Of a DNA stretch of 64,000 bases, positions 25,194 to 40,682 are shown in pieces (within the stretch, counting starts at the first letter, position 1; the number at the start of each line of letters is the position of its first letter). A model generated the notes under the pieces. That model was not told where the DNA came from. It saw only the letters and a list, made by a program, of their open reading frames with translations, and ran no database searches. Source of the DNA: a virus (Duplodnaviria; Caudoviricetes); the IMG/VR virus record IMGVR_UViG_3300006149_000006, positions 1 through 64,000 of that record; one strand, given 5' to 3'. Made by a program: the position numbers and the translations under genes.

Positions 25194-25532
25194 TTAAATT
25201 GCTGGGCTATCCTCACTTCCCGTATCGATCTGAGTAAATCCATTTGCTTGAGCTGATGCGAAGGTAATTCCATCGCCGTTGCCACCCACGTTTTCAGCCC
25301 TGCTCTTATCTACAATTCTGCTAAGGACAATACTTGTAGCCGTTCCTATTGGAGTGAAACAAATGCTCCAACAGGCAAGCGCACCAGTGTATCCATAGCT
25401 GATACTACGCCATGCAAGGATAAAGCCGCCAGCAAGGCCAGCGGCTAAAAACAGCAGAATATACATAGCAAGACGATTGGTAAATCCAAGCTTTTCGAAA
25501 TGCTTGATGATCTTTGGTATACAATTTTTCAT
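25194..25532 (-). CDS. Two-TM membrane protein (holin-like)
   Basis: Two hydrophobic helices and KS.AEN; directly after the endolysin. Confidence 0.6.
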   Translation of the reverse strand: MKNCIPKIIKHFEKLGFTNRLAMYILLFLAAGLAGGFILAWRSISYGYTGALACWSICFTPIGTATSIVLSRIVDKSRAENVGGNGDGITFASAQANGFTQIDTGSEDSPAI

Positions 25533-25536
25533 AAAC

Positions 25537-26277
25537 TTAAGTCTTCCCCATCATCTGGGCAAATCGATACAACACTGTTACCAGCTGTTCACGAGTAAGC
25601 AAATCCGCCCACATGTAATTGGGCTGGCCGTCGATTACTGTTCCATTTCCAGTAATCAGACCATTATCGACTGCCCACTGACGGGCATCCGCACTCCACA
25701 TACCGCTATCATTATCCTGAAGCTCCTTACGCATCTCAGTCCAAAGCTCTCTGAATCTATTTACATCCATATCATCATCCTCCTGTAAACTCTTTTTAAA
25801 TTTTTCCCATAATGAAGCATCAGAAACCATTGGTGCCGGACACTGCTTATGTGTTACATCATAATGACGAACCACATTCTTAATTGGAATATTATACTCA
25901 TCCATTAGCGTCTGAACAAATGCAACCGCAGTTTTAATGCTTTCATGTCTAATATTTCCCTGCTTGTCCAGCATACAGATTTCTACACCAATACTGTTAT
26001 TATTTCGGCATGTCTTATGATAGTATTTATTCTTTGTACCGCAATGCCATGCATTATGATCCGGCGAAACACTGCACCATATTTCATTATCATCCACAAA
26101 ATAATGCGCAGAAACGCCTACATTTTCTCTGGCAAAATAATCCGCGTTATTCTTGGCCGTATCTCCGTAATTTCCGGTATAATGAATTACTATATACTGA
26201 ATTGACGACAGCGATCTAACAGCTCTCGTATAATTAGCTGGATTTGCTAATTTTGTATTGATACACATAAATTTCAC
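25537..26277 (-). CDS. Endolysin, N-acetylmuramoyl-L-alanine amidase (Amidase_2) with SLH-like tail
   Basis: IVIHYT, SAHYFVD, AWHCG, NSIG.E, RHYDV..K.CP and TREQ motifs. Confidence 0.93.
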   Translation of the reverse strand: MKFMCINTKLANPANYTRAVRSLSSIQYIVIHYTGNYGDTAKNNADYFARENVGVSAHYFVDDNEIWCSVSPDHNAWHCGTKNKYYHKTCRNNNSIGVEICMLDKQGNIRHESIKTAVAFVQTLMDEYNIPIKNVVRHYDVTHKQCPAPMVSDASLWEKFKKSLQEDDDMDVNRFRELWTEMRKELQDNDSGMWSADARQWAVDNGLITGNGTVIDGQPNYMWADLLTREQLVTVLYRFAQMMGKT

Positions 26278-26313
26278 CTCGTTTTTAAGAGATATTATAA
26301 TTATATCTTCTTT

Positions 26314-26433
26314 TTAATCCAAAACAATTTTTTGCATTTGTTCCGACGTAATCCAGTTTTTAGCTACTGCATTTTGAAGTGCCTGCATATTAATGCTTCC
26401 ATTTTTGTATAACCTTTTTAATGTTTCAAACAA
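26314..26433 (-). CDS. XkdX-family small protein
   Basis: FETLKRLY..G......L..AV.K.WIT..Q...I; RBS aggagg. Confidence 0.75.
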   Translation of the reverse strand: MFETLKRLYKNGSINMQALQNAVAKNWITSEQMQKIVLD

Positions 26434-26451
26434 AGTCAACCCCTCCTTTTA

Positions 26452-27303
26452 TCATGTTGTGTGCTTTAATGGGGCAAACGAGAAATATATTGGATAACTC
26501 GTGCCATTGAATGTAATCGATTGGGATGGGAACTGGATCGTTTGCGTTACGGTGTAGGTATAATTTGGTGAAATATAAACACCAGTTCCAAGATTATGAT
26601 TCCCATCAGGCATAGCGGTGCTCTGATTTGTTGTTAAATTATAAGTGTAATCACTTCCAATTTGCGATGCATAATTTGAATAAAATCTTGGATTTGAATA
26701 ATTAAACCGTGTTCCGTCAAACTTTATTCTACAAGTCACCGAAAAAGTAGAAGGATATCGTCCATCTGCTCGATAATAGTGTAAATAAGAATTCCTGGAT
26801 GGGCTTGGGATGTCTATTGTATAGCTCTCTAAGTTTTCAAATGTTTCATTTTCATATATTGCACAAATCCGATAGTTATTATATGTCCCTCTTGTTTCAG
26901 AATATGTTGTATTTGTAGTTGCAACAACTCTCGATAAAACATAATCCGCGTAATATGTTTTTGGATAACTTCTGTTATTATTTTTATAAAACCATTCCTC
27001 TGTATAGTAATTCTGAATTGTTTCTGATCTATATTTATAAATCGTATAGCTTCCGCTCGTGGATGTTCCTATGAATGATAGATCTTTATTATATTTTAAA
27101 ATATCCTCGTCACCGAGACCAACCCATTTGTTTGTCGGTATCGCTAGAAAATATTGTATTCCCGTCTCAGGGCCAAAGAATTGTCTTTTAATACCACTTA
27201 CACCATTATATCCATGACTTACATTTTTCACCACACCACTTACACCACATTTTACGGATGATACATTTTTAATTACACCACTCACGCCAACTGCAATGCT
27301 CAT
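26452..27303 (-). CDS. Putative fibre tip/adhesin (cassette 4)
   Basis: Three GVSGV.K repeats at the N-terminus; Tyr/Thr-rich body. Confidence 0.6.
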   Translation of the reverse strand: MSIAVGVSGVIKNVSSVKCGVSGVVKNVSHGYNGVSGIKRQFFGPETGIQYFLAIPTNKWVGLGDEDILKYNKDLSFIGTSTSGSYTIYKYRSETIQNYYTEEWFYKNNNRSYPKTYYADYVLSRVVATTNTTYSETRGTYNNYRICAIYENETFENLESYTIDIPSPSRNSYLHYYRADGRYPSTFSVTCRIKFDGTRFNYSNPRFYSNYASQIGSDYTYNLTTNQSTAMPDGNHNLGTGVYISPNYTYTVTQTIQFPSQSITFNGTSYPIYFSFAPLKHTT

Positions 27304-27743
27304 GGATTTTCCCCACTTCTTGCGAGTTCCGCAATCAATAAACTATCAATTACCTCTTGTTGCTGTATAATCATCTGCTCCGGCAAAGTCGTTTGAATCA
27401 TCTTAACCCATGCTACAAATATCTTTTGCGGATCATCCTCTTGCCCAATAGAAGAAACATTCATTGAGTTTCCAATATCTCCGATAGCACTTTCCTTTGT
27501 ACTACACCCCAATCCATAACGAATGGTAAAATGTTCGTGAACAAAAGACTCCCCATCTTCCGTATGAATAATAATCCTATCACAAAGTTCCGGCACAAAC
27601 ATGGCAGATAATTCATTCAAATCGATTTCTGGATTGAAAAGAAAAGTGTACGCTTCCCTTGATGTCCCCTGATAAAAACATGCACTGGAATGAACTCCTT
27701 CACAATTCAGCATCGTTCCATCCATAAGTTCTATTTTAACCAT
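27300..27743 (-). CDS. Putative fibre assembly chaperone (cassette 4)
   Basis: Follows the fibre gene; acidic with a short C-terminal coil. Confidence 0.5.
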   Translation of the reverse strand: MVKIELMDGTMLNCEGVHSSACFYQGTSREAYTFLFNPEIDLNELSAMFVPELCDRIIIHTEDGESFVHEHFTIRYGLGCSTKESAIGDIGNSMNVSSIGQEDDPQKIFVAWVKMIQTTLPEQMIIQQQEVIDSLLIAELARSGENP

Positions 27744-27758
27744 AAGTGTCCTCCATTC

Positions 27759-29174
27759 TTAACTATACACCAGACATATTGTCCCATTATTAAGTGAGCT
27801 AGGCGCACTTGTCCTCATTGCTATCCCTCGATAAAGCGTAGATGTATAACTTGTATTGGTCATACTTGTTTGCCCTGTGCCTCCATTAGAAACCGAAAGT
27901 GTCCCTGTGACACCCGGTGTTATGCTTGCTGTACCATCAAAACTAGAAGATGATGTACTTCCAAGATTTGTACGAATTGTTCTTGCAGTTGTAAGTTTCG
28001 CGGCTGAGTCAACTCTATCAGCTCTTGCTACACGAATAGGGGCAATATATGTTGTCTGTTCTTTTGTAATACGGCCCTTAGAATCAACTGTAACATTCGC
28101 AATAGGAATCCCCGGATAAAAACCATACGTTGAATTTGTGATTGTAAAGTATGATTCCACATTATTCTCATAAATAACAGTTGATGGATCTGCTGTTCCT
28201 GTCCCATACTTTACCTCGCTAATCTCTGCCCTATCCGTCCCATTATTGACACTATTATCCTTCCGGTATGTAAATACAATAGACTGATTGGCCGAAAGTG
28301 CAACCGTCAGCTGGCCGCTTTGCTCTACTGCGCCACCGGTATTTGCCAACACAGTCGATCCAGCTGCTACAATATTAAGATAATCATATGACACATTTTC
28401 AGATGATACTTTCCATTTGAATGACAATTTACACGCCTGTTTTGCAGTCCATGTAGATATTGCTGATGTGCCATGCAATCCAACATTATTACTGACCCAT
28501 ACGGTACCATTATTGTTGCGAACTAATTCTATCGCTCCATATTCACCAGACACAACACCAGTATTGGCAAGCGTAGTAGGGATGCTTACACTCGAAGCGC
28601 CGTTAAATGATACGCTACCTGTCGCATCTCCACTCAAGGAGATGTTTCTTGATGTCGCAAGTTTAGCTGCTGATACCGCTTGCCCAGTTGTATTTCCAGT
28701 CCCGCCATTTGTTATTCCTAATGTGCCTGTAACACCGGGCGTAATGTTTGCACTTCCATCAAAACTTGCTGTAGATGTACTTGCGAGATTAGTTCTAATA
28801 GTACGGGCTGTTACAAGTTTTACTGCCGATGTCGCTGAACCACCGGCAGTGCTTGAACCTGCATAACTGTGCGTGTGAGATGTGCTTGATTTACTGGCAA
28901 GTTTCTCATCCATTTCCTGTTCTGTATAGTATCTTTCATCATGAATGTGGCCTGTCGGAGAAGCGCCCACTTGGGCAGCAGTATAATCACCGGCTTGCGG
29001 AACAACTGCTCCTGTCCTCCCTTTGAAAGATGTCACACCTGTATCTGGCGCAGCCTGTGCAACTGCATTTCCATTTTCATCAAATCCAACTACTTGTCCA
29101 ACAGCGCCAATAAGCTTATCTTGTTTTCTTGCAAGTTCAGGCTTATCATTCATAGGAAATCCTGAAACAATCAT
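27759..29174 (-). CDS. Tail fibre protein (cassette 4)
   Basis: MIVSGFP-KQDKL-GQVVGFD head, HxH motifs and duplicated ARTIRTNL..FDG...GGTG repeats. Confidence 0.85.
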   Translation of the reverse strand: MIVSGFPMNDKPELARKQDKLIGAVGQVVGFDENGNAVAQAAPDTGVTSFKGRTGAVVPQAGDYTAAQVGASPTGHIHDERYYTEQEMDEKLASKSSTSHTHSYAGSSTAGGSATSAVKLVTARTIRTNLASTSTASFDGSANITPGVTGTLGITNGGTGNTTGQAVSAAKLATSRNISLSGDATGSVSFNGASSVSIPTTLANTGVVSGEYGAIELVRNNNGTVWVSNNVGLHGTSAISTWTAKQACKLSFKWKVSSENVSYDYLNIVAAGSTVLANTGGAVEQSGQLTVALSANQSIVFTYRKDNSVNNGTDRAEISEVKYGTGTADPSTVIYENNVESYFTITNSTYGFYPGIPIANVTVDSKGRITKEQTTYIAPIRVARADRVDSAAKLTTARTIRTNLGSTSSSSFDGTASITPGVTGTLSVSNGGTGQTSMTNTSYTSTLYRGIAMRTSAPSSLNNGTICLVYS

Positions 29175-29353
29175 TCTGACATCATCCCTCCTTTTAAATA
29201 ATCAATGCTTTGATATTCGTTGAGTATAATAAATACGCAACATCTTATCCTTTCAACGCTCAAAACGACAATATGCTCTTTTCCAGCCACACATCATTCC
29301 ATTCACCCCCTCGCATGTTCCATCATTGTCCACTGCTATTTGTCATGAGCATC

Positions 29354-29446
29354 AAAAGCAAACGTTTTGCCTCACCCTCTGTTGCCTACGATAAAATTGA
29401 ACAGGCAGTTGTATGAGAGGGTTTTGTAAATGTTGTAGTAAATCAT
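29354..29446 (-). pseudogene. N-terminal relic of a phi29 gp16-type DNA encapsidation ATPase
   Basis: MIYYNIYKTLSYNCLFNFIVGNRG*GKTFAF; ATG overlaps the upstream stop (ATGA); stop falls inside Walker A. Confidence 0.7.
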
Positions 29447-30642
29447 ATTCGAGTGAGAGGTTGGGTTGATATACCTGAAACCTGCGCGTCCCCATACGCG
29501 TAGCAGTTGTATATTGTCGGCGAATTTGCAAATTTAATGCTATTCTTGAATATGCAGTTTAAAAATAATGAACCGCTTGCATTTACTTCTGTTGTGACGC
29601 CATTGAAAATACAATCATAGAAACGGTCTAACCTTAACTGTGCATTTCCAGTTAGTGTTATTTCGCAACCAACAAAAACAGAATTATCTATTCTGCCGGC
29701 ATATTCAACAACGCCGCCAACTGCTCTTATCCGTTCGCCCGTGATTGTTAATGACGTTTTAGGGTAGGTTCCGCTAAGATGATTACCCGTTAGAACAAAA
29801 ATCTTATTTGCAGCGTCATTATTAAATATGGGGGTCGCTACCCCCGCAATACGTGTGGTCGCTATTTCTACATTCTGGTATTCATCTGTCGCCGCGATCT
29901 CTATTAAACCGGCTGATTGATATAACTTTAAAGCCTGTATATTATTAGGATGATTGAAGCTTAAGGCCGACACATTAGCGATATAATGATAATCCATATT
30001 TATATTGCCATTCATCTTCCCACCCGTGAGCGGCAGCGCCGCATTCGCTTTGGTCAGCGCGGCAGATGCGTTAGACGATGCTGTAGAAATATTGCTGTTT
30101 TGTGTGGTCTGCTCTGTTTTGATTTTCGCCACATCACCCTGAAGCGCCGAGATGTCTGCCATATTGTCATTTACATCTTTTACCAGTCCATCAGATGTGC
30201 TGCCGACTGTAGTTTCCAGTGCAGAGATGCGATTTGTAACGCTCTCCGGAACGGAACCGGACGACTGTTTCAGTTTATTTATCTCCGCTGTATTGGAAGC
30301 GATATTCGAGGCATTGTCAGCCGATTTTTTGACGAGGCCTGACGTGCTGTTACCGACCGTGGTCTGGAGCGTCTCCAGCTCTCCGTCTATCGCGGTGATG
30401 TTATTTTCATTTGCAGTCACACGAGCTGTCAGGGCAGTAATATTCGAGGTATTGGTTTCCGTTTTAGCAACTGCGTTTTGGATAGCGGTTGTATTGCCGG
30501 AAATAGCCGTATCCTGAGCCGTCTGCTGTAATTCAATTTCTGCAACATCATCTTGAATTGCCGAAACATTTGTTGTATTTGTCTGAACTTGATTAACAAG
30601 TTCTTCTGGTATTTCCTTTTTAGGTAAAGTAGAAAAAATCAT
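29443..30642 (-). CDS. Coiled-coil tail fibre/spike (cassette 3)
   Basis: MIFSTLP head, heptad stalk, LPLTGG.M.G.I.M and beta-helix-like C-terminus (FxxCxF). Confidence 0.75.
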   Translation of the reverse strand: MIFSTLPKKEIPEELVNQVQTNTTNVSAIQDDVAEIELQQTAQDTAISGNTTAIQNAVAKTETNTSNITALTARVTANENNITAIDGELETLQTTVGNSTSGLVKKSADNASNIASNTAEINKLKQSSGSVPESVTNRISALETTVGSTSDGLVKDVNDNMADISALQGDVAKIKTEQTTQNSNISTASSNASAALTKANAALPLTGGKMNGNINMDYHYIANVSALSFNHPNNIQALKLYQSAGLIEIAATDEYQNVEIATTRIAGVATPIFNNDAANKIFVLTGNHLSGTYPKTSLTITGERIRAVGGVVEYAGRIDNSVFVGCEITLTGNAQLRLDRFYDCIFNGVTTEVNASGSLFLNCIFKNSIKFANSPTIYNCYAYGDAQVSGISTQPLTRI

Positions 30643-30700
30643 ATTTATCTCCTTTCACTCTTTAATTAATCTATTATGGGCTTTCTGATTGAAAACAAAG

Positions 30701-30745
30701 AAAAACACACGCGCGTGCTATTGAATAACACGTGCGTGCGTTTTT
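30701..30745 (-). terminator. Hairpin terminator after TAC operon 2
   Basis: aaaaacacacgcgcgtg / cacgtgcgtgcgttttt. Confidence 0.7.
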
Positions 30746-30915
30746 CATGCATTGCTTTCTTATGATCTTCGTCAGTATCATAAGAAAAAGCCAGGAAACA
30801 TAAGTCTTTGTTATGTTCTTTCGTTATAAATAAAAATAACGAAAAATGTCCCTCTAAAACGGAACGGAAACTTAGTCCATCCATAAACACTTTTCAAGCA
30901 AAAGAAAGCTTTTAG

Positions 30916-31326
30916 CTACGGTTTTCCAGCTTTATCGTCTTCCATAAAATTCATAAACGGTATGTGAACCGGCTGGAAAGGGCCAGCCATTGTAATCTGC
31001 GCGATATAAGGGCGCAAATACCCCAGCAATAACGCAGGCGCGTTGTTCTTCAATAGCGCCTCTACTATCTGGCTGTCAGTCTCTTGATCCCACCGGAAGT
31101 GAGCACCGATGACGGCAGAAAGACAAAAGGGGTACTTCTGTGATTCTTCAGCAACGTCTGCTTGTAAGGAAACATAAGCCATGCAAGAATCCACCCGCTG
31201 AACAGAGAACTTGGTTTCAAAAGGTAGCTGTGTATCCTTATTTTCTTCGGGACTAAAGCCTTCATTAACTAAAAAAGCCATTTTCGTTAAAACAGGATTC
31301 GTAAATTGAAATTTGCTTGGCACCAT
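30916..31326 (-). CDS. SecB-like chaperone
   Basis: NAPALLLGYLRPYIAQIT...P..IPFMNF motif. Confidence 0.88.
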   Translation of the reverse strand: MVPSKFQFTNPVLTKMAFLVNEGFSPEENKDTQLPFETKFSVQRVDSCMAYVSLQADVAEESQKYPFCLSAVIGAHFRWDQETDSQIVEALLKNNAPALLLGYLRPYIAQITMAGPFQPVHIPFMNFMEDDKAGKP

Positions 31327-31337
31327 TTTGACCCCTC

Positions 31338-32003
31338 CTATGCTGCACAGCGCAAAAATCCGCCAAGGAGTGCGCTCTGCTCCGCTCCTATTTTTTGCGA
31401 TTCTTGCTCTATGACCGCAGCTGACGGAATCTTAAGTATTTGTTTTTCATATGCGCTGCAAATCCAATTTGTATCAGCCAATGTGTGTGCTTGGACATGA
31501 CCTAACAGAGATGCTGCAAAATCAGTGCACGTTCGCAATTCTACTAATCCTTCACACTTCGTCGTTATCGAAGGGAGAGTTAGTTTAGCGAAATACGAAG
31601 GGCTTTCCCAAGCAGAACAATCAGAACTGTGCGATTCCAGCATATTACGGTATTCAGCGGTGCAATCTGCTGGAAGCTCAAGGTAACTATCCACGTCTGG
31701 GTAGGCATCAGCAGGGACGTTGTTCGACAGACTGAATTTATCGCCGTCCCATTTTAGGAAAAACAATGAAGAACGTTGATTATGAAAAACATCCGAAAAC
31801 GCAAGCTTATCATCAATAATTTCAATCAAGTCTTCTGGACAGGTTTTTGCAATCAGCCACTCCTCCGAGAGACGGCAGCAGGAGCACAAATAACGATTTG
31901 CAGCTTGATCTGTACATACGAACAAAATAGGTTCGCCATATTCATAAAATGTGTGTTCCAATGTCAATGTCCCGATCTGGGGAAGATTCGCAAATTGACT
32001 CAT
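31338..32003 (-). CDS. Putative antitoxin (DUF6575-like N-terminus, tail ending in -AA)
   Basis: F.EY.EPILF.C......YL N-terminus; C-terminus GGFLRCAA. Confidence 0.6.
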   Translation of the reverse strand: MSQFANLPQIGTLTLEHTFYEYGEPILFVCTDQAANRYLCSCCRLSEEWLIAKTCPEDLIEIIDDKLAFSDVFHNQRSSLFFLKWDGDKFSLSNNVPADAYPDVDSYLELPADCTAEYRNMLESHSSDCSAWESPSYFAKLTLPSITTKCEGLVELRTCTDFAASLLGHVQAHTLADTNWICSAYEKQILKIPSAAVIEQESQKIGAEQSALLGGFLRCAA

Positions 32004-32012
32004 AAGAACCTC

Positions 32013-32453
32013 CTATCCTTCAGTTTTTATATAAAAGAGTCTGCTCGGATCTGCGTCATGGTAAAGCCACCAATCAATATGAGATGTTTTCTTACCAGTA
32101 CGCTCTTTTGTTCTCTGTAGCGGTCCGAGCGCATAAGTCGCTTCACCCTCCATGATAAAAGCTGGTGGATTATATCTTTTCAAACATTTCAACGTATTTC
32201 GAGCTTCATTCACGTTTTTGAAGCAAGACGTGGAATATGTACCTGGGTCATCAAGATTCCATTTTGGTGGTTTGGGCTGAAGACCCTGTCGGACACTTTC
32301 GTAGGTGCTGAGAAATGCGTTTTTGTTAATTATACCACTTATGCATACACGATATACCTGCAATGTCAATGGGACAATATTTTTAGGCAGTATATCCGTT
32401 TCAAAATTGGCTGGGAATGAATCCGGGAATTTGTTTGCAACTTCATTTTGCAT
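32013..32453 (-). CDS. ART-like putative toxin
   Basis: VYR, YSTSCF and SHIDWWLY pattern. Confidence 0.55.
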   Translation of the reverse strand: MQNEVANKFPDSFPANFETDILPKNIVPLTLQVYRVCISGIINKNAFLSTYESVRQGLQPKPPKWNLDDPGTYSTSCFKNVNEARNTLKCLKRYNPPAFIMEGEATYALGPLQRTKERTGKKTSHIDWWLYHDADPSRLFYIKTEG

Positions 32454-32521
32454 TAGTCACGAACCCCTTTGGTGTCGGTATTCATCAGTATACACAAGCG
32501 TTTAGCACTTGTATAATATTC

Positions 32522-32550
32522 ATTATACACAAAATACGTTTCCGAGTCAA
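32522..32550 (-). promoter_or_regulatory. SigA promoter of TAC operon 2
   Basis: TTGACT-17-TATAAT. Confidence 0.8.
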
Positions 32551-32693
32551 CATTATTTTAACTTTTATGCACAAAAATAAATTTTCCAGCAACCGACACA
32601 TCATCCTGCAACAGCACTTCGGAACCACATCAACAGCTCAACCTGACCCAGAATAAGTCGGTAAGCCTCATCAAAGCTACCTCCGGGTAAAAC

Positions 32694-32726
32694 AAAAAAA
32701 CGCCCCGACCGCGAGGGCCGAGGGAC
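32694..32726 (-). terminator. Intrinsic terminator
   Basis: GC-rich stem followed by T7 on the - strand. Confidence 0.75.
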
Positions 32727-32731
32727 TTATA

Positions 32732-32935
32732 TCATGCATTATTATGGAAAACATCTCTCGCAATATTTTCCAGCACTCTCCGCTGGTATTCTTTGATTTC
32801 CTCGTCATTCGGTTCCCTTACCCCATGCTCAAGAAAGAACATCACCAATGCGAGATACCCGACTTTATATGCGAAGCATTTCAAGGCACTGTAAATCAGA
32901 ACCGTTACTAGCACAACCTGTAGCATCGTCCTCAC
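32732..32935 (-). CDS. Small membrane protein
   Basis: Hydrophobic N-terminus; RBS-like ggggtg. Confidence 0.5.
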   Translation of the reverse strand: MRTMLQVVLVTVLIYSALKCFAYKVGYLALVMFFLEHGVREPNDEEIKEYQRRVLENIARDVFHNNA

Positions 32936-33092
32936 CCCTATCCATATGCTGCTTCTTCAGACGCTTTGGACTTGAATCAACAATTCAAATGCTTGGGCTA
33001 TCAATCGAATCATCGGCGGGCGGCTGGAACCTTGCGGCTTCCAAGATCGTAAAATTTTCCAGAGCCAGAAGTAATATAATAACCCCGTTATT

Positions 33093-33485
33093 TTAACATT
33101 GAGCCTTTGGGGAGAACACTAATATCGCTTTTCTTGCAAGGGACAGCGCCTGAGTATCGCTTAGCATTATTTCAGTTTTACTGCCATGAATTTCGCTGTG
33201 GTACTTATTCGTTGAGGACGGACAATATTTTACATATGCTTGCACCGTATTGCAATCCTTCACAGTGAGCGAAACTATCACCCCTGTAAGAGTCTTCCTT
33301 ATAAAATTTATTGATTCCTGTAGAGACTGGTCATATACACGATTGACAGATAGACCATTTTTATCCTTAAATGCCGCGCTAGAGAGCTTGCCGTTCCTCC
33401 AAAAATTCGGACGCTGATTAGCTGGCCAAACCGCTCTCAGCAGTAACTCCATCTCATCAAACTCAAAGGGCATAGAACTTATCAA
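33093..33485 (-). CDS. ART/RES-like putative toxin
   Basis: E.L.RAV, AFKD..GLSV.R and H.EI pattern. Confidence 0.55.
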   Translation of the reverse strand: MISSMPFEFDEMELLLRAVWPANQRPNFWRNGKLSSAAFKDKNGLSVNRVYDQSLQESINFIRKTLTGVIVSLTVKDCNTVQAYVKYCPSSTNKYHSEIHGSKTEIMLSDTQALSLARKAILVFSPKAQC

Positions 33486-33801
33486 CTTCCTCGCTCATCA
33501 ATCCTATCGGGATGTCTTTTGTCTCCGTTTTGTCATCGTGACTGCAAAAAAATTTCTTCAATCTTCCGCCCTCAAATAACTCGAATTCCAGATAATCTCC
33601 ATTCTCATTTTCGTATTCGAGTTGGATGCTATCTCTGGCTGTCGGAAATATCTCGGGTTGCGTTTTGAGACTTTCGACAATATATTTAAGCGTATCCAAA
33701 ATCTCATTTGAAAATTTAGACGCACCATTCTCGTTCCAATTATCTGGCAAATCACGAATCTCTGATATCCGATTGTAGCTTGTCTGCAAAGCGGTATTCA
33801 T
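33463..33801 (-). CDS. Putative antitoxin
   Basis: I..L..NWN..GA and P.IFPT....IQLEY; coupled to the toxin-like gene. Confidence 0.55.
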   Translation of the reverse strand: MNTALQTSYNRISEIRDLPDNWNENGASKFSNEILDTLKYIVESLKTQPEIFPTARDSIQLEYENENGDYLEFELFEGGRLKKFFCSHDDKTETKDIPIGLMSEEVDKFYAL

Positions 33802-33880
33802 GACAGAATCACCATCCAAACACAAAGTGATATTACCATATTGTTTATTTTTTCAACCGTAGGTGCATTTCTATAATTTT

Positions 33881-33909
33881 ATTATACACCCCGGGCAAAA
33901 GGCTGTCAA
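33881..33909 (-). promoter_or_regulatory. Consensus SigA promoter of the TA pair
   Basis: TTGACA-17-TATAAT. Confidence 0.85.
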
Positions 33910-34058
33910 CAACGACATTACGCTTCTGTGAAAATTTCCTTCATACTCAATGCTGTACCTCCGGTATGTTTGATTTCCTTTATAGTACACCGCGAACCGG
34001 GGTTTGTCGTCCCCGGCTCACGATGCAGTACCAGTGTTTAGAGCGTTACTTCCCGTTT

Positions 34059-34208
34059 TTACTGCCCCGTTCCGCCGAACGCCGCAGGAACCAGATCAGC
34101 AAGGCCGCTGTCAATCAACACCTCGGCACACCCCGCCTGCAATGCTCTCGGAACATCCTCAAACGCCGTCTTACCAAGAATTACCCTCTGTGCAAAAAAC
34201 ATAGCCAT
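34059..34208 (-). CDS. Small CD1375/XkdX-like tail-associated protein (cassette 2)
   Basis: MAMFFAQRVILGK..F.DVP..L...AEVL. Confidence 0.65.
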   Translation of the reverse strand: MAMFFAQRVILGKTAFEDVPRALQAGCAEVLIDSGLADLVPAAFGGTGQ

Positions 34209-34258
34209 TATTAGAAACATCCTTTCAAAATATATTTGTACCCGCTAAAATGCGGATA

Positions 34259-34666
34259 TCATACGTTGTATACCTGTGCAGCCATTTCGGCAATACAGTC
34301 CTCCAAAAAATCTTGCCTGCCGCTTGCCGCTGCAATCTGCGCCCGCAGCAGCGCGTTATCTGCCCGCAGCTGCTCCATTTCAGACGGCGGCGGTTCAGGA
34401 ATAGCAGCACGATCCACCGCGATCTCTTCTTCGGTGCGCGGCTTAACAGCCTGTCCGTCCCACTTGTACAGAGGGATGCCGTCTGCGTCATAGAAGGAAG
34501 GGTTTTCCTCATCGTCCGACGTAAACCGGAATTGGTAACCACCCTTGTCGCTTATGCAGATAGCGTCCGTTGTATCGCGGTCAGGGTGCGGACCATCGCT
34601 CCAATAGCTGATGATTGCGCCATCGGCGCGGGTTTTGATGTAGTGCTTGTTGTAATATTCGTTCAT
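34259..34666 (-). CDS. Putative fibre assembly chaperone (cassette 2)
   Basis: G.PLYKWDG....RT.EEI..D, coiled tail and FLEDCIAEMA; visibly GC-rich. Confidence 0.7.
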   Translation of the reverse strand: MNEYYNKHYIKTRADGAIISYWSDGPHPDRDTTDAICISDKGGYQFRFTSDDEENPSFYDADGIPLYKWDGQAVKPRTEEEIAVDRAAIPEPPPSEMEQLRADNALLRAQIAAASGRQDFLEDCIAEMAAQVYNV

Positions 34667-34677
34667 AATTTTCCTCC

Positions 34678-35745
34678 CTAAATATTGGAATCTAAAATAA
34701 TTTTCGCAGTACTATCTCTCGTTGATATACTCAGTACCGGATAAACGGTATCGGTTGGTGTTGCATCCAATGCAAGCCGCACAGACATAGGTGTATCCAA
34801 TATCGCCCAGACACAAGATTTAATAAGCACACTTTCTATTTTTCCGGATTTCAGGAAGTTTGCATAGATTTCTCCTTCGAAAGATACTGTTGGATTTTTT
34901 TGCATAGTAGCTGGAATCGTAAAAGCGACACGAAGGCCGTTTTGCGTTGTTCCTGTTGCTCCGGATGCCGGGGAATTAGACCATGTAGGCAACCTGATGA
35001 CAACCTGATACCGCTGGCACTTTGTCAGCTCCGTTGCATAATTCGGGACTTCGTTGAGCACCCAAACACCGTTTTCTTTGTGTGCAAGTGTTTGACGATG
35101 GCCAAGTTCAAGTTTCATTGCGGCAACATCTACAATACCTTTATTTCCTGGTGTAATGGAAACATTAAAATGATCTTGCATTCCATTCGGAATAGCGAAT
35201 GTAAACGATACTACCTCGTATTCTGTATTTTTATAATACCCTGCTTGTTCAGTAATGTTACTATCGTAAGTCGTTCCATACGAAAGAGTAAAATAAGAAC
35301 CACTAACAAGTTTTGCAAGTGCAGAAAGCGTTACGGTTTTGCCCTCCAATTCTTTGAAATGCCCAATCCTCTGCGAGAATATTGATCGGTAGTCGTTCGC
35401 GCTCGCATCAACACGAATACCATCAGGAAAAAGAGTTGTAATAACAGATGTATACGTGCGCCATCTATCAATCGTATAATTAACATTAGTGTACTCCGTC
35501 TGTCCCCTCTGATTCACCGGATTCGCAAAATACCAATTATCCAGCAGATTCTGATTACTGAAAGAACGGTAATACTCTGCAATCGAGGTCACCCCATCCG
35601 GCATCAAGAACTTATCAGCTGTAAAGTTTTTTGCAAACTGTGAAGCAGGAAGCTGGGCAACGCCCCCCTCTCTATTAACTATAAAAGAGTCTGTCAACTC
35701 GTTCAAAAATTCAATTTTTTGAAGTTTTTCAGGCTTCTGTGCCAT
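34678..35745 (-). CDS. Tail fibre/receptor-binding protein (cassette 2)
   Basis: NLLDN..F..PVNQRG...Y..DRW, KLE.G and EL.KCQRY motifs. Confidence 0.75.
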   Translation of the reverse strand: MAQKPEKLQKIEFLNELTDSFIVNREGGVAQLPASQFAKNFTADKFLMPDGVTSIAEYYRSFSNQNLLDNWYFANPVNQRGQTEYTNVNYTIDRWRTYTSVITTLFPDGIRVDASANDYRSIFSQRIGHFKELEGKTVTLSALAKLVSGSYFTLSYGTTYDSNITEQAGYYKNTEYEVVSFTFAIPNGMQDHFNVSITPGNKGIVDVAAMKLELGHRQTLAHKENGVWVLNEVPNYATELTKCQRYQVVIRLPTWSNSPASGATGTTQNGLRVAFTIPATMQKNPTVSFEGEIYANFLKSGKIESVLIKSCVWAILDTPMSVRLALDATPTDTVYPVLSISTRDSTAKIILDSNI

Positions 35746-36019
35746 TATTTTGCTCCATTTCTCCCACCGAAAGGAACGTCGGGTGCGATTCCTCTAATCG
35801 ATTGTGGGCTGCAATTTTTTCGTCAATCATAGCCGCAACCTCTTCTACGGTAGGACATTTGCTGAGGGCAGCTTGTAATTCAGCAACATCATTTGAGGCG
35901 ACCGCATTACCACTTTCATCAAATCCAACTACCTGTCCAACAGTGCCAACAAGCTTATCTTGTTTCTTGTCTAAATTATCACCTTCGCTCGCCGGAAAAG
36001 TAGAAAAAATCACGGTCAT
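35729..36019 (-). CDS. Stand-alone fibre head/adaptor (cassette 2)
   Basis: VIFSTFP-KQDKL-GQVVGFD-GNAVA followed by I.AHN....HP. Confidence 0.7.
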   Translation of the reverse strand: MTVIFSTFPASEGDNLDKKQDKLVGTVGQVVGFDESGNAVASNDVAELQAALSKCPTVEEVAAMIDEKIAAHNRLEESHPTFLSVGEMEQNNGTEA

Positions 36020-36046
36020 CCCTCCTTTCCTTTCTTTTGTTATACA

Positions 36047-36694
36047 TTAAACGATTTCTATCCAATCATCAGGTACCACTTCCGGACTGAAATTGGTATC
36101 CCTCAATGCTTGCATAATCTTACCGTTTATCCACTCTGCATATTCTCCTGCTTTATATACGTCGTGCGCTCCTGTAGGTGGCTTATACGGAAGAGCAGCA
36201 TCAGGGGATGTCCCATGATAGGGCGACCACAAAGACGGTGCATCTGCTGGGTTCCAGCCACTGTTTGCCGTACTGTCATGCGACTGACAGCAACTATATG
36301 GAATATTTTCATACAGGCGTACATCCCCGGTTGAATATGTCCCAGGTTTCCACACTTCTGCAAGACCACGGCACCGGATAATGTCATCCGCTTCCATCGT
36401 GGCTACCTGCGTTCGAAACATCATCCGCGCCATTGCAGTTACTCCTTGGCTTTCAAGTGCCCGTCTCTGCATTTGAAAGGCTTCTTCTGCTGCTTCCTGC
36501 ATTTTCTTTTCTTCAAATGCTGCCCTTCGGCTGGTATCTTCTACAATGTCAGCAATAGCCGTCCTATCCTCATTCAAAATCAGTTTAGAGAACGCCCTAT
36601 ACCGGTTAAACTTCTCTTGCAGTTCCGGCGTAAGATTCCACGATATATCAGGAATTTCATAAGGCGTGGTTGTTAAATCTTCTTGTATGTACAT
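36047..36694 (-). CDS. Fibre-associated protein with CBM5/12-like repeats (cassette 1)
   Basis: W.PG.Y..GD..Y...Y.C.Q.H.S...W.P...SLW and PTGAHD.Y..G motifs. Confidence 0.7.
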   Translation of the reverse strand: MYIQEDLTTTPYEIPDISWNLTPELQEKFNRYRAFSKLILNEDRTAIADIVEDTSRRAAFEEKKMQEAAEEAFQMQRRALESQGVTAMARMMFRTQVATMEADDIIRCRGLAEVWKPGTYSTGDVRLYENIPYSCCQSHDSTANSGWNPADAPSLWSPYHGTSPDAALPYKPPTGAHDVYKAGEYAEWINGKIMQALRDTNFSPEVVPDDWIEIV

Positions 36695-36705
36695 GTTAGC
36701 CTCCT

Positions 36706-38403
36706 TTATCCGATTGCAAAATAGGCGTAAGTGTATCCGTCCTCGTTCATAGCAATATATCCAAATCTTGTGTTTGTTCTATATCTAGCATTTCTAACAT
36801 TAAACCCGGTGGATGTTATTTCTAAACAGGCTGCCAGATTTGTAGTGCTATCACCTTGAGAACTTTTGAAAGGATACCCGTCATATGCATAATTTGAATA
36901 CACATACACAGTATATCGCTCATCATAATACATCGACCACGGGGCCTCTGCGGCGCTAAGACTAACACAGCCCACAAATACAAATTTAGGTCTAAACCCA
37001 AGATTTATAGAACGAGCGGACTGAAAGGAATTTGTAGTATAACTTGGTACCGCCACATTCCCCACATAAGTCCCTGTTGCGATCTTCGCACCGCCGCCCG
37101 AAAACTCTTCTCCGTTCAGCAGAAGTTTTTGCGTGACAAGATTTATTTGTTTGTTGCCCTTAATCTCAAGACAATCATCCGTAGGCTCATACAAATAAAC
37201 ATAGTCACTATCGCCAAGGTTTAGCTTCATGCCATAATTTCCAGAACCTTTGATTCTAAGATTCCCGGTCAGAGTGCCGCCTGTGCTGGGAAGTGCACCG
37301 ACCTCGGACGCAGTGTAGGTAGGCTTTGCCGCTGCTTGTGCCCATGCTGATACAATCGCATTCCTTAAATTTGTAAATGATATCTTTTTACCTGTTGCTG
37401 CGCTAGTGTCTCTAAATGGGAATAAATCATTCGTAGCAACAGTTGTCTCTTCGCTTAGATTACTTACAAGATTTCCAATCGCAGATGGCGAACTCGTTCC
37501 GCCTGTGCCGCCGCGCGATGTAGGCAGCGTACCAGATGTAATATTTGTTGCACTATGATTATGGGATGTAGGCGCTCTGGTGCTGATTTGAGTATCGACA
37601 TATAGCTTATTGGAAGCATCATGATTGAATTCGGGATCTTTTATACCTATTAACCTAACAAGATCTGTCGTTGTATCTTTATCTGCTTCAGTATCGCCAT
37701 TACTTATAGTTGGACTAGATATCGTTGGACTACGAAATCTAATAACAGGCTTACTAGAATTAAGTTTAATGAGCGGATTTAACAAAAATTTGTTGTTCAT
37801 ATCGAGATTTCCTGCCATAGTCCCCCCAGCCAGCGGAAGATATTTTGCGGCTTTATCATCTACGTATTTTTTGTTGGCGGCACCATTATCAGTTACTGGT
37901 TCTGATAAACCTTTCAAAAATATTGGAACTTTTGTCGTATCAGATTCACTAGCTACAATAGCAACTTTGGAATTAAAATGTCCAAGCCATATAGTATTTC
38001 CATTTTGGTTTAACCCAATAGCTGAGAGTTTTTCACACGCGCTCTTATTAAAATTCACACTGCCACTCATCGTCCCCCCGCTCAACGGCAGCGCTCCAAC
38101 CTGCTCTGCGGTATGAGTATGAGTGTTGTCAGCCTTATTTGCAAGTTCTTCGTCGATTTCTGGATGCGAATGATCGACTGGAGCCGCACCGACTTGTTCC
38201 GCTGTATAATCCCCAGTCTGCGGACTGACAGTTCCATGCCTACCATTAAACGATACGACACCAGTATCAGGAGCCTCTTGCGCAACAGCGTTCCCATCAG
38301 CATCAAATCCAACAACTTGTCCCGGCATACCAGTTAATTTATCCTGTTTATCAGCTAACCCACTTTGTTCTCCCATTGGAAACGCAGAAATAATCATTTT
38401 CAT
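36706..38403 (-). CDS. Tail fibre protein (cassette 1)
   Basis: MIISAFP-KQDKL-GQVVGFD head, LP..GGTM.G and AANK.YVD repeats. Confidence 0.85.
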   Translation of the reverse strand: MKMIISAFPMGEQSGLADKQDKLTGMPGQVVGFDADGNAVAQEAPDTGVVSFNGRHGTVSPQTGDYTAEQVGAAPVDHSHPEIDEELANKADNTHTHTAEQVGALPLSGGTMSGSVNFNKSACEKLSAIGLNQNGNTIWLGHFNSKVAIVASESDTTKVPIFLKGLSEPVTDNGAANKKYVDDKAAKYLPLAGGTMAGNLDMNNKFLLNPLIKLNSSKPVIRFRSPTISSPTISNGDTEADKDTTTDLVRLIGIKDPEFNHDASNKLYVDTQISTRAPTSHNHSATNITSGTLPTSRGGTGGTSSPSAIGNLVSNLSEETTVATNDLFPFRDTSAATGKKISFTNLRNAIVSAWAQAAAKPTYTASEVGALPSTGGTLTGNLRIKGSGNYGMKLNLGDSDYVYLYEPTDDCLEIKGNKQINLVTQKLLLNGEEFSGGGAKIATGTYVGNVAVPSYTTNSFQSARSINLGFRPKFVFVGCVSLSAAEAPWSMYYDERYTVYVYSNYAYDGYPFKSSQGDSTTNLAACLEITSTGFNVRNARYRTNTRFGYIAMNEDGYTYAYFAIG

Positions 38404-38443
38404 CAACTCCTTTCATCTATCTACAATTACCAAATTTGTAATA

Positions 38444-38848
38444 TTATCCAATGAGAATTAGCGTTACAGGAATATCGCATGATGGAATCTGTCCAGCAAC
38501 AGAAATAGTTAATCGTCCATTCTCTTGGCCGCTTACATATAGTTTTGCGGCACAAGCTTCTTCAAACTGTTCTCTTGAAATATTCTGAGATATATTGATA
38601 ATCCCATTTTGCAAATCTGTCAATGCATCAATCGTAAGCGTTTGTGTCACTAGACTATCCGAGCCAATCCATGCGGATGCTTTCAATACAGTATCAATAT
38701 ATCTGCTGTTCTCGGCTTTTTGTGCAAGAATATTATCAATCTTTGTCATGTTAGAGTTAGTTTCGCCAAATACTTTTTTGCGCACATCTATAACCATTTC
38801 GCTGCTGTCATCTGTAACGTATAGTCCATAATTTGCGGTTTCACTCAT
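38444..38848 (-). CDS. Tail adaptor-like protein (one L.ASAW...CDIPV domain)
   Basis: Domain is repeated in the upstream gene. Confidence 0.65.
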   Translation of the reverse strand: MSETANYGLYVTDDSSEMVIDVRKKVFGETNSNMTKIDNILAQKAENSRYIDTVLKASAWIGSDSLVTQTLTIDALTDLQNGIINISQNISREQFEEACAAKLYVSGQENGRLTISVAGQIPSCDIPVTLILIG

Positions 38849-38864
38849 AATTAGCCTCCTTTAA

Positions 38865-39620
38865 TTAGGGAATCAGCATAATCGTTACAGGAATATTACA
38901 TGCCGGTAAATTCCCACTCGCCGAAATAGTGATACTTCCATCTGACTGATCGGCTACACGAAGATTCGCCTCCTTCGCCGCCTTTATTTGTTCGTCCGTA
39001 GCATCTCTTGCAATGCTAATTACGCCGTTTTGCTTCTCATATAACCCATCCACTCTGACTGTCTGTTGATTATTACTCCATGCCGATGCTTCCAACGTAA
39101 TATATACCATATGACTTGAATTGTCAGTTGGAAGAAGAACAATAGACACTGGAATATCACAATCTGGAATTTGGCCATCCGCATGAACTATGAGCGAATT
39201 TTTATCTTGGTTCGATATTACCAAATTGGCATTAGCTGCTGCTGTCATCTGTTCGTCTGTCGCAGCATCCGAAATTCCAATAATACCATTTCGTTCAGAT
39301 CCAAACCTATGATCTGTAATTGTTTGTTCATTATCACTCCATGCATTTTGCAGAAGTACAGCTTCAACAAGAATACTGGATGAAGAACCATTAAAATTAT
39401 CAAACGGAAGCTCATTATACCGTTTTCCTCCGTATCCTGTTTTATGTCGAATCACACCATCGCTACAAACCACAGTAACCATCTCTCCATCTAAAAGAAC
39501 TGGATTTTTGCTTTCCCAACTCTCTACAGTGTCCCTGCGCTGCTGAAATGTTCCAGTAACTTTTCGTTCATTCATTTTCATATCACGCTCATTTCTTTCA
39601 AAATTTTTGCTATAAAACAC
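38865..39620 (-). CDS. Mtd_N/hyaluronidase-N-like tail protein with two adaptor domains
   Basis: RRDT...W...NPVL.DGE...K.G.G...NELP plus two AW...QQT...P.C.IPV domains. Confidence 0.7.
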   Translation of the reverse strand: MFYSKNFERNERDMKMNERKVTGTFQQRRDTVESWESKNPVLLDGEMVTVVCSDGVIRHKTGYGGKRYNELPFDNFNGSSSSILVEAVLLQNAWSDNEQTITDHRFGSERNGIIGISDAATDEQMTAAANANLVISNQDKNSLIVHADGQIPDCDIPVSIVLLPTDNSSHMVYITLEASAWSNNQQTVRVDGLYEKQNGVISIARDATDEQIKAAKEANLRVADQSDGSITISASGNLPACNIPVTIMLIP

Positions 39621-39666
39621 GGCTGTTATACCCCAATATAGTACAACAGCCGCTAATCGTTTTTAT

Positions 39667-40623: not shown

Positions 40624-40682
40624 TTTATCACTTCCTTTTCACAAAATAAAAGGGGGAATATGATACTCCCCCTAATTTTCAA

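What the first reader, a model, noticed from the sequence alone, without database searches (positions are those of the whole stretch)
26314..38403. Array of four tail-fibre cassettes sharing an N-terminal docking tag (candidate plug-in receptor-binding system)
Seen: four genes start MIISAFP (38397), MTVIFSTFP (36019), MIFSTLP (30642) and MIVSGFP (29174). Three continue KQDKL.G..GQVVGFD..GNAVA and then diverge into largely different bodies. Cassettes 1, 2 and 4 have their own chaperone-like followers, and base composition visibly differs (34000-34680 is GC-rich). In cassette 2 the tag is a stand-alone 96-aa ORF overlapping an untagged fibre gene. Inference: the phage grafts foreign receptor-binding proteins onto a common anchor peptide and accumulates them as a cassette array, giving a multi-receptor virion or swappable host range.
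Basis: partly seen in the sequence, partly recalled or inferred. Interest (0 to 1): 0.85.

Follow-up and report, generated by a model that had tools for sequence, protein, structure and literature searches.

The report
Four phage tail fibres, one plug
An uncultured temperate gut phage carries four tail-fibre gene cassettes that all start with the same seven-residue peptide, and comparison with other phages shows the fibre bodies were swapped at that boundary. This plug-in host-recognition design is already known from Klebsiella and Salmonella phages.

Summary
Four minus-strand genes (starts 38397, 36019/36013, 30642, 29174) are the only ORFs in the window that begin M-I-x-S-x-(F/L)-P. Three continue with KQDKL.G..GQVVGFD..GNAVA.

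The tag has two parts:
- A lineage-specific N-terminal heptapeptide head.
- One unit of a widespread, uncurated ~28-32-aa tail-fibre repeat. It occurs in 896 protein clusters, often in tandem and at any position, so it is not a specific tag.

Comparative data support module exchange at the tag boundary:
- A mosaic relative is 99.6% identical over at least 10.8 kb of tail genes, and this identity ends about 110 codons into cassette 1.
- That relative has a different RBP set in cassette 2. Behind an identical head in cassette 3 it has a 985-aa Peptidase_G2 spike instead of the 399-aa protein.
- An unrelated ~40-kb phage shares the cassette 1 body, its follower and the cassette 2 adaptor half at 86-94% nt identity, but with a different N-terminal tag.
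- The split 96-aa adaptor is conserved, not a broken gene.

Docking itself, the socket, virion content and the chaperone role of the follower genes remain inferred. The principle is established for KP32/KP34/SP6-type phages. I rate this a new variant of a known kind, of moderate interest.

The parts
36706..38397 (-). Cassette 1 fibre, 563 aa. Residues 1 to about 94 (38397 to about 38114) form the lineage-specific N-terminal module: the head MIISAFP, one KQDKL repeat, an SFNGR..DYTAEQVGA motif and an HxH stretch. The rest is shaft and distal domain.
   Evidence: PHROG tail-fibre hits. 99.6% identity to the relative L076 ends at 38068. Homology to the L086-type phage (93-94% nt) starts at 38114.
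36047..36694 (-). 215-aa follower of cassette 1 with a CBM_5_12 carbohydrate-binding module. It travels together with the cassette 1 distal domain.
   Evidence: Pfam CBM_5_12, E 1.8e-08, above the cut-off. 94% nt identity to the L086 216-aa gene, contiguous with the fibre C-terminus.
35729..36019 (-). Stand-alone adaptor, 96 aa (94 aa if it starts at GTG 36013). Residues 1-48 are the head plus one KQDKL repeat. Residues 49-96 are a conserved connector that occurs in other phages behind other N-termini.
   Evidence: The same-length homologue P0001 is 93% identical. The connector half occurs in 64-aa proteins on 178 contigs that start MKFLDKEGLTYLW. The overlap junction is conserved.
34678..35745 (-). 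Untagged 355-aa receptor-binding protein of cassette 2. It has a conserved N-terminal ~100 aa, a variable body and its own ribosome-binding site.
   Evidence: PHROG 4492 tail fibre, E 4e-13, and a weak CBM_4_9 hit. Only the first ~100 aa resemble the relative's 353-aa and 333-aa genes.
34259..34666 (-). 135-aa follower of cassette 2 in the GC-rich stretch. Function unknown.
   Evidence: 88.8% nt identity to L070 and 84% to the L086 115-aa gene. No family hit. GC 0.51-0.53.
30666..33923 (-). Insert of self-promoted accessory genes (morons) that splits the array. It is absent from the relative, which has a holin and a CHAP endolysin at this position.
   Evidence: PADLOC hits to PD-T4-9_C and PDC-M32A/B. 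A SecB-like Pfam hit. A perfect TTGACA-17-TATAAT promoter at 33909-33881.
29443..30642 (-). Cassette 3, 399 aa. It has the head MIFSTLP only, then a coiled-coil stalk and a beta-helix-like C-terminus. The body is an orphan.
   Evidence: Positions 30746-30618 (104 nt upstream plus the first 8 codons) are 99.2% identical to the start of the relative's 985-aa Peptidase_G2 gene, after which homology stops. No real homologues. Atlas model leads.
27759..29174 (-). Cassette 4 fibre, 471 aa, with the full tag and classical tail-fibre repeats around a central jelly-roll-like domain.
   Evidence: 13 PHROG hits, 7 of them to tail or tail-fibre families, best E 8.8e-27. The orthologue in L070 is 87% identical in protein and 82.6% in DNA.
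26452..27743 (-). Two followers of cassette 4, of 147 aa (27743-27300) and 283 aa (27303-26452). Functions unknown.
   Evidence: Orthologues of 151 and 290 aa in L070, at 83% and 51% aa identity. No family hits.
26314..26439 (-). XkdX-like 41-aa ORF that closes the fibre region before the endolysin at 26277-25537.
   Evidence: ORF. The counterparts in L070, L086 and L100 carry PF09693 Phage_XkdX. Amidase_2 endolysin.
38444..39620 (-). Two upstream proteins, of 134 aa and 251 aa (238 aa by the public gene call). Together they hold three copies of a lectin-like knob domain ending ..DIPV.L.L. The first tagged gene always follows them.
   Evidence: Profile hits. The same gene order in 5 lineages. 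The AF2 domain has pLDDT 70-94, with Z 5-6.8 to the C-terminal domains of fibres and spikes.

Best explanation
The region is the mosaic host-recognition module of a ~125-kb temperate siphophage known only from metagenomes.

Four fibre proteins carry the same extreme N-terminal heptapeptide, M-I-x-S-x-(F/L)-P. Three follow it with one KQDKL fibre repeat.

Shown:
- The head, with or without the repeat, is specific to the phage backbone.
- Everything behind it is exchanged horizontally as blocks: shafts, distal domains with their follower genes, and whole fibre-plus-lysis modules. The crossovers lie at the tag boundary.
- In cassette 2 the tag sits on a separate small adaptor. The adaptor's C-terminal half and the conserved N-terminus of the untagged receptor-binding protein travel together, which gives a second level of modularity.

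Inferred:
- The head is the plug that fixes each trimeric fibre to an equivalent socket on the baseplate or proximal fibre complex.
- One virion, or a population of virions, can therefore mount several receptor-binding proteins.
- Host range changes by swapping what lies behind the plug.
For: Tag similarity is real and specific.

Backbone specificity of the tag:
- At least 10.8 kb of tail genes are 99.6% identical to L076/L068. That identity runs through tag 1 and stops at about codon 110.
- Six short public contigs all break 104 codons into cassette 1.

Bodies shared with another backbone:
- Window 38114-36081 is 93-94% identical in DNA to the 747-aa fibre C-terminus plus follower of L086-type ~40-kb phages.
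- Window 35872-35588 is 86% identical to their 64-aa adaptor plus the start of their RBP.
- Their adaptor and the neighbouring 172-aa protein instead share the tag KFLD..GL.YLWG.

Cassette 3: 129 nt covering the head are 99.2% identical to the relative. Behind it the relative has a 985-aa Peptidase_G2 protein with the full tag, against 399 aa here.

Cassette 2: the RBP body is replaced, and there is one RBP here against two in the relative.

The split adaptor is conserved, including the overlap junction.

The head recurs at residue 1-2 in four other lineages, in the same gene order.

Precedent: N-terminal docking peptides as short as 7 aa are reported in KP34, K1-5 and SP6 phages, and the docking of the RBP2 peptide was validated for KP32, K11 and KP34 (PMC6872550, PMC13352976).
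Against: - No binding partner was identified. Monomer AF2 of the tag is uninformative (mean pLDDT 57.6) and no multimer tool was available.
- The largest part of the tag is a generic shaft repeat.
- The cassette 4 tag is less conserved between the two haplotypes (68-74% aa) than its body.
- Cassette 3 lacks the repeat and may be a damaged or differently attached protein.
- The two haplotypes are mosaic relatives: only 72-83% identical downstream, with different integrase genes. The break in cassette 1 could therefore be the edge of one large module swap rather than of a cassette-sized one.
- Only two haplotypes were found.
- There are no expression or virion data.
Confidence: 0.65

Rival explanations
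1. Paralogy without a common socket. The four genes descend from one fibre gene by duplication. The shared N-terminus is only the conserved start of a trimeric shaft (a folding or trimerisation nucleus), and each protein attaches elsewhere or in series, end to end.
For: - The KQDKL unit is a tandem shaft repeat in hundreds of fibre proteins.
- AF2 sees only a beta-hairpin in GQVVGFD..GNAVA.
- In the distant lineages sampled (L092, L093, L096, L097; contigs of only 1-6 kb) just one clearly head-tagged gene is seen, directly after the knob proteins. This fits a fixed position in a chain.
Against: - The head is at residue 1-2 in every case and is absent from all 56 IMG/VR loci that hold internal KQDKL repeats.
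- Foreign bodies are joined directly behind the tag.
- Another backbone uses another shared tag on the same bodies.
Confidence: 0.2
2. Partly dead array. Some cassettes are relics of recombination that are not assembled into virions: the 399-aa protein with a truncated tag, and the 96-aa ORF as a frameshifted fragment.
For: - Cassette 3 lost the KQDKL unit and its body has no homologues.
- It lies behind a moron insert that carries terminator-like sites, the last at 30865-30848. No promoter-like site was found on its strand between the insert and its start.
Against: - All ORFs are intact and have good Shine-Dalgarno sites.
- The split adaptor and its overlap junction are conserved across different phages on at least 178 contigs.
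- The window-type array is 99.94% identical in an independent assembly.
Confidence: 0.1
3. Programmed host-range switch. The repeated tag DNA serves site-specific inversion or shuffling (Gin/Cin or shufflon type), or a DGR.
For: Repeated 5' ends are present, and there is a weak Mtd_N hit in an upstream fibre.
Against: - All cassettes lie in one orientation, each with its own start.
- There are no inverted repeats of 24 nt or more in 25000-42000.
- Tag DNA is only 71-90% identical.
- No recombinase or reverse transcriptase was found among the Pfam hits in the locus.
Confidence: 0.03

Closest known systems
Branched RBP systems of Klebsiella phages (KP32, KP34, Menlow and PhiK64-1 groups) with a 'conserved peptide' on the secondary RBPs (Latka et al. 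2019, PMC6872550; validated for KP32, K11 and KP34 in PMC13352976)
   Same: - Several RBP genes in a row.
- A short N-terminal peptide conserved within a phage group, 7-29 aa (MALxxLV in KP34).
- Highly variable bodies exchanged horizontally.
- The peptide differs between phage groups.
   Different: - No sequence relation.
- The phage here is a large temperate siphophage of Bacillota type, inferred from XkdX, the Amidase_2/CHAP lysins and Phage_holin_6_1.
- No T4gp10-like branching domain was detected.
- The head is followed by a generic fibre repeat.
- One tag sits on a separate 94-96-aa adaptor.
- Docking is not shown.
SP6 / K1-5 / K1E adaptor system, in which two tailspikes each carry a 7- or 11-residue N-terminal peptide (as summarised in PMC6872550)
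   Same: Very short N-terminal peptides are enough for attachment, and alternative spikes give dual host specificity.
   Different: - Podoviruses with a dedicated adaptor protein (gp37).
- Two RBPs there, against four cassettes here.
- No homologous adaptor was identified here.
Ackermannviridae TSP1-4 branched complex (PMC11414711, PMC11721090)
   Same: Four receptor-binding proteins are encoded in tandem, with conserved N-terminal parts and swappable receptor-binding parts.
   Different: - There the N-terminal parts are large folded domains that bind one another in a defined hierarchy.
- Here the shared element is a heptapeptide plus a ~30-aa repeat.
- The hierarchy here is unknown.
Classical tail-fibre mosaicism (P2, Mu, P1 and lambda fibre genes; from my own knowledge, Haggard-Ljungquist et al. 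1992)
   Same: The conserved N-terminus is tied to the virion. C-terminal parts and their downstream accessory genes move between unrelated phages as a unit.
   Different: Those phages have one fibre gene each, not an array of four with a common plug.
PBSX-type XkdV-XkdW-XkdX fibre end region of Bacillota prophages (from my own knowledge; the XkdX Pfam hit is on neighbours)
   Same: The order fibre genes, small follower genes, an XkdX-like ORF, then holin and endolysin.
   Different: The array here is doubled, and in the relative it is a tandem of two complete fibre-plus-lysis modules.

Membership tests
Multi-RBP adsorption systems with conserved N-terminal docking peptides | Two or more receptor-binding or fibre genes with different bodies in one phage | tested here: met
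   PHROG tail-fibre hits for the cassette 1 and 4 fibres and the untagged 355-aa protein of cassette 2. Cassette 3 is a coiled coil plus beta-helix-like protein. The bodies cannot be aligned with one another.
Multi-RBP adsorption systems with conserved N-terminal docking peptides | A short N-terminal peptide shared by the RBPs of one phage group | tested here: met
   The head M-I-x-S-x-(F/L)-P occurs on all four genes and nowhere else in the six frames. The full tag has E 2e-22 and 2e-12. The same heads are present in the relative.
Multi-RBP adsorption systems with conserved N-terminal docking peptides | The peptide follows the phage backbone while the bodies are exchanged between backbones | tested here: met
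   L086-type phages share the bodies at 86-94% nt identity but carry a different tag. The 99.6% backbone identity ends just behind tag 1.
Multi-RBP adsorption systems with conserved N-terminal docking peptides | An anchor, branching domain or adaptor that offers the socket (for example a T4gp10-like domain) | tested here: inconclusive
   No such family appeared among the Pfam or PHROG hits of the 20 neighbouring proteins. The adjacent knob proteins look like distal lectin-like domains. No profile-profile or multimer search was possible.
Multi-RBP adsorption systems with conserved N-terminal docking peptides | Physical attachment of the RBPs through the peptide, and their presence in virions | not testable with these tools
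   This needs proteomics, cryo-EM or binding assays.
KQDKL..GQVVGFD..GNAV fibre repeat (uncurated) | A ~28-32-aa unit, often tandem, in phage fibre-like proteins | tested here: met
   The profile finds 896 clusters at E<=1e-3, with up to 14 (P0008) and 27 (P0015) matched stretches per protein. Tandem copies are visible in P0009, P0011 and P0014. No Pfam or NCBIfam model covers it.
Invertible-segment or shufflon host-range switches | Inverted recombination sites flanking alternative gene ends, plus a dedicated invertase | tested here: not met
   No inverted repeats of 24 nt or more. All cassettes are co-oriented. No invertase among the hits.
Diversity-generating retroelement (Mtd type) | A template/variable repeat pair and a reverse transcriptase | tested here: not met
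   The only direct repeats are the tags themselves, at 71-90% identity. Mtd_N scores 18.4 bits, below the cut-off of 26.3, in an upstream gene. No reverse transcriptase was seen in the locus. The rest of the genome was not scanned for one.
Tail-fibre assembly chaperones (the follower genes) | Membership of a known Tfa, gp38 or intramolecular-chaperone family | tested here: inconclusive
   No Pfam, PHROG or NCBIfam hit for the 135-, 147- and 283-aa followers. The 215-aa follower has only CBM_5_12. Co-transfer with the distal domains fits an accessory role but does not show it.

The most novel reading that the evidence does not exclude
The heptapeptide X-I-(I/F/V)-S-x-F-P is a general plug for a conserved socket in a widespread, unstudied group of gut Bacillota siphophages. 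One baseplate can then carry four or more different receptor-binding proteins at once. Small stand-alone adaptors (64-96 aa: head, one repeat, then a connector helix) would act as natural converters that let the phage mount foreign, untagged receptor-binding proteins without gene fusion.
Probability: 0.3. Interest if true: 0.6.

Novelty: new variant of a known kind. Interest (0 to 1): 0.45.

Why it matters
Host recognition by phages of gut Bacillota is poorly understood.

This locus gives a clear natural example of how such phages rebuild their host range:
- A backbone-specific plug of about seven residues.
- A generic shaft repeat.
- Freely exchanged distal modules with their accessory genes.
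- A separate adaptor protein.

It also defines two uncurated sequence families that would improve annotation of metagenomic phages: the KQDKL fibre repeat and the DIPV knob domain.

The principle itself is not new.

Tried and rejected
- GenBank phage collection: no match by megablast or tblastn.
- Distant relatives found through the tail-tip protein (L060-L067, 31-41% identity) lack the tag. The best one has a single giant fibre, so they are too far for cassette comparison.
- Host assignment: both genome-contig scans were empty. The host remains unknown.
- Fused forms of the 134-aa protein: none in the 'longer' search.
- The single apparent fusion, P0009, joins the two genes through CAA-GGC-GGA-GTA-ATG. 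That is a lost stop codon read through the ribosome-binding site, on one contig at 3.9x coverage. I count it as weak evidence only.
- The idea that the 134-aa and 251-aa proteins are the socket. This was weakened because their shared domain also sits at the C-terminus of repeat-bearing fibres and resembles distal lectin-like knobs (Z<8, not decisive).
- AF2 of the natural fusion and of the tag alignment: only the knob domain and one hairpin were predicted, and the rest is below pLDDT 60.
- PDB sequence search with the tag profile: only chance matches at E>8.
- Programmed frameshift at the junction of the 96-aa and 355-aa genes. Rejected as the simplest reading because there is no slippery heptamer, the second gene has a good SD and ATG, and the split is conserved in many phages.
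- Invertible switch and DGR: rejected.

Full report
**What the window is.** The window is the first 64 kb of a 95.6-kb linear IMG/VR virus record estimated at 74% complete. Public assemblies of the same phage reach 125-127 kb. The tail region runs on the minus strand:
- a 2687-aa ORF at the position and length of a tape-measure protein (not searched against any family);
- a 1276-aa tail-tip protein;
- a Dit-like DUF6558 protein;
- several fibre-like proteins;
- the region in question;
- an XkdX-like ORF;
- an Amidase_2 endolysin.

An integrase lies further on in the same-type contig, so the phage is temperate. The lysis and XkdX genes point to a Bacillota host. That is inference, because both host scans were empty.

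- Four genes start with M-I-x-S-x-(F/L)-P, and three continue with KQDKL.G..GQVVGFD..GNAVA.
- Within the whole record the first 60 residues of cassette 4 match only cassettes 1 and 2, at E 2e-22 and 2e-12.
- The head pattern occurs four times in six frames, always at these gene starts. Shuffled sequence gives 0.03 hits.
- The tag DNA copies are 71-90% identical and the upstream regions are unrelated. What is conserved is the peptide, not a recombination site or a regulatory element.
- Shine-Dalgarno spacing places the head at residue 1 in all four genes. For cassette 2 this means the GTG at 36013.

**What the tag is made of.** A profile of the 43-residue tag was searched against 1.84 billion representative proteins. 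It finds 896 clusters at E<=1e-3.
- Nearly all matches cover only profile positions ~12-43, lie anywhere in the protein, and often occur many times over, up to 14 and 27 stretches.
- P0009, P0011 and P0014 show the unit in tandem with a period of 28-32 residues.
- In 56 IMG/VR loci the unit lies 27-413 residues from the first Met, and none of those loci has the head.
- No Pfam or NCBIfam model covers it.

So the KQDKL part is one unit of a common, uncurated fibre-shaft repeat. Only 7 of the best 150 hits carry the full tag at residue 1-3. These define the head [M/P/A]-I-I-S-x-F-P in four further lineages (L092, L093, L096, L097). Ten sequences from five lineages keep I2, S4, F6, KQDK, G23, Q27, G30-F31, G35 and A37 invariant.

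**Comparative evidence for exchange at the tag boundary.** The 96-aa ORF led to a relative, ENA contig NODE_52 of 126,984 bp (L068, L070, L076).
- Tail genes 48847-38068 are 99.60% identical over 10.8 kb. That identity runs through tag 1 and stops about 110 codons into cassette 1.
- Six short public contigs all end exactly 104 codons into this gene. This is what assemblers do at a branch point.
- Behind the break the picture is mosaic:
  - Cassette 1 mid-shaft is 28-52% identical in protein.
  - Its distal part, the CBM follower and tag 2 are 94% identical in DNA.
  - In the cassette 2 receptor-binding protein only the first ~100 residues are similar, and the relative has two such genes (353 and 333 aa) where the window has one.
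  - The 135-aa follower is 88.8% identical.
  - Cassette 4 is 82.6% identical.
  - The endolysin is 74.8% identical.
  - Early genes are 72-75% identical.
- At cassette 3, 129 nt (104 nt upstream plus the first eight codons, the head) are 99.2% identical. After that the relative encodes a 985-aa Peptidase_G2 protein with the complete tag, and the window encodes an unrelated 399-aa protein without the repeat.
- The relative also has a holin and a CHAP lysin between cassettes 2 and 3, so it carries two complete fibre-plus-lysis modules in tandem. The window has defence-like morons at that position.

The two phages are mosaic relatives, not uniformly near-identical. Only two haplotypes were found.

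**Same bodies, different plug.** The C-terminal half of the 96-aa protein occurs in 64-aa proteins found on 178 contigs (the look-up index lists it in 294 blocks of the collection). These belong to ~40-kb phages of L086 type.
- In those phages the fibre region is collinear with cassettes 1-2: a 747-aa fibre, a 216-aa CBM_5_12 gene, a 64-aa adaptor, two ~347-aa receptor-binding genes, a 115-aa follower, XkdX and a holin.
- Window 38114-36081 is 93-94% identical in DNA to their fibre C-terminus plus follower.
- Window 35872-35588 is 86% identical to the adaptor connector plus the start of the receptor-binding gene.
- Homology begins at residue ~95 of cassette 1 and at residue 49 of the adaptor, directly behind the tags.
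- In L086 the adaptor and the preceding 172-aa protein share a different N-terminal tag, KFLD..GL.YLWG.

Tags therefore go with the backbone and bodies move between backbones.

**The split adaptor.** The 17-nt overlap, the stop codon and the internal GGAG-ATG are conserved in all versions examined. Small stand-alone head-tag proteins of 64-70 aa also exist in L092 and L096. This is a conserved two-protein design, not a broken gene. The adaptor connector and the conserved first ~100 residues of the untagged receptor-binding proteins travel together. That suggests, by inference, that they bind each other.

**The socket is unknown.** In all five lineages the first tagged gene follows a 133-134-aa 'MSET' protein and another protein that end in ..DIPV.L.L. 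One database protein fuses the two, but through a lost stop codon on a single low-coverage contig. The shared domain is also found at the C-terminus of repeat-bearing fibres. It folds confidently, with pLDDT 70-94. Its best matches are the distal domains of tailspikes, pyocin fibres and H-type lectins, at Z 5-6.8, which is below the level that proves kinship (leads). These proteins are more likely small knob-bearing fibres than the docking platform. Monomer AF2 of the tag gives only a hairpin in GQVVGFD..GNAVA. No multimer tool was available.

**Comparison with known systems.** Conserved N-terminal peptides that dock secondary receptor-binding proteins are described for the Klebsiella KP32, KP34, Menlow and PhiK64-1 groups and for K1-5 and SP6 phages. 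They differ between phage groups and can be as short as seven residues (PMC6872550). The branching-domain and docking-peptide interaction has been validated experimentally for KP32, K11 and KP34 (PMC13352976). Ackermannviridae carry four tandem tailspikes in a branched complex (PMC11414711).

The present locus works like these at the genomic level and meets the sequence-level criteria. It has no sequence relation to them and no detectable T4gp10-like domain. It is from a large temperate siphophage, and it adds a repeat unit and a separate adaptor. Invertible-segment and DGR mechanisms are excluded by the absence of inverted repeats, template repeats and recombinase.

**Verdict.**
- Observation: confirmed.
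- Interpretation: partly supported. Exchange at the tag is shown. Docking, a multi-receptor virion and chaperones are inferred.
- Novelty: a new variant of a known kind.
- Interest: moderate.

Noticed in passing
window 30666-33923 (- strand): Accessory genes with their own promoters split the fibre array. They include a SecB-like protein matching PADLOC PD-T4-9_C (E 1.8e-10) and two genes matching PDC-M32A/B. A perfect TTGACA-17-TATAAT promoter lies at 33909-33881. The relative has a holin plus a CHAP endolysin at this position instead.
   Followed up: partly
L070:3611-5114 and L070:11338-13026: The relative carries two lysis cassettes (Phage_holin_6_1 with CHAP, and Amidase_2), one after each pair of fibre cassettes. 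That amounts to a tandem of two complete fibre-plus-lysis modules. The C-terminal ~65 aa of the window endolysin (25731-25537) match both lysins at about 74% nt identity.
   Followed up: partly
window 38865-41708 (- strand): Three upstream fibre-like proteins (341, 318 and 251 aa) share a second, different N-terminal module (..GDT.ENW..KNP.L.. ..GDG...F..LPY). It gives a weak Mtd_N hit below the cut-off. The phage therefore has two classes of N-terminal attachment modules.
   Followed up: no
window 38444-38848 and 38865-39620; L092, L093, L096, L097: A ~85-aa 'DIPV' knob domain, which ends ..(D/N)IPV.(I/L).L(I/L), has no Pfam, PHROG or NCBIfam family. There are three copies in the window. It also forms the C-terminus of repeat-bearing fibres in L005, L012, L016 and L093.
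   Followed up: partly
P0008, P0009, P0011, P0014, P0015: The KQDKL..GQVVGFD..GNAV unit is an uncurated tandem fibre repeat present in about 900 clusters at 50% identity. One protein shows 14 matched stretches and another 27.
   Followed up: partly
L092:321-1026 and L096:4250-5411: In two other lineages the last ~15-20 residues of the small head-tag adaptor resemble the C-terminus of the next fibre protein (..EVAEMLNEVFG.. and ..D(V/I)..(I/L)WN.VT(L/V)). This pattern is not seen in the window.
   Followed up: no
L079-L084: Six independent short assemblies break at exactly codon 104 of cassette 1. This suggests that several body variants coexist in those samples.
   Followed up: no
window 19305-20606 compared with L070:14210-15376: The two haplotypes carry integrase genes of different length (423 aa by the gene call in window-type L099, 433 aa for the window ORF, against 388 aa in L070). 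No DNA match was found between them in the whole-window blastn (E<=1e-20, matches of 150 nt or more), so they may use different integration sites.
   Followed up: no
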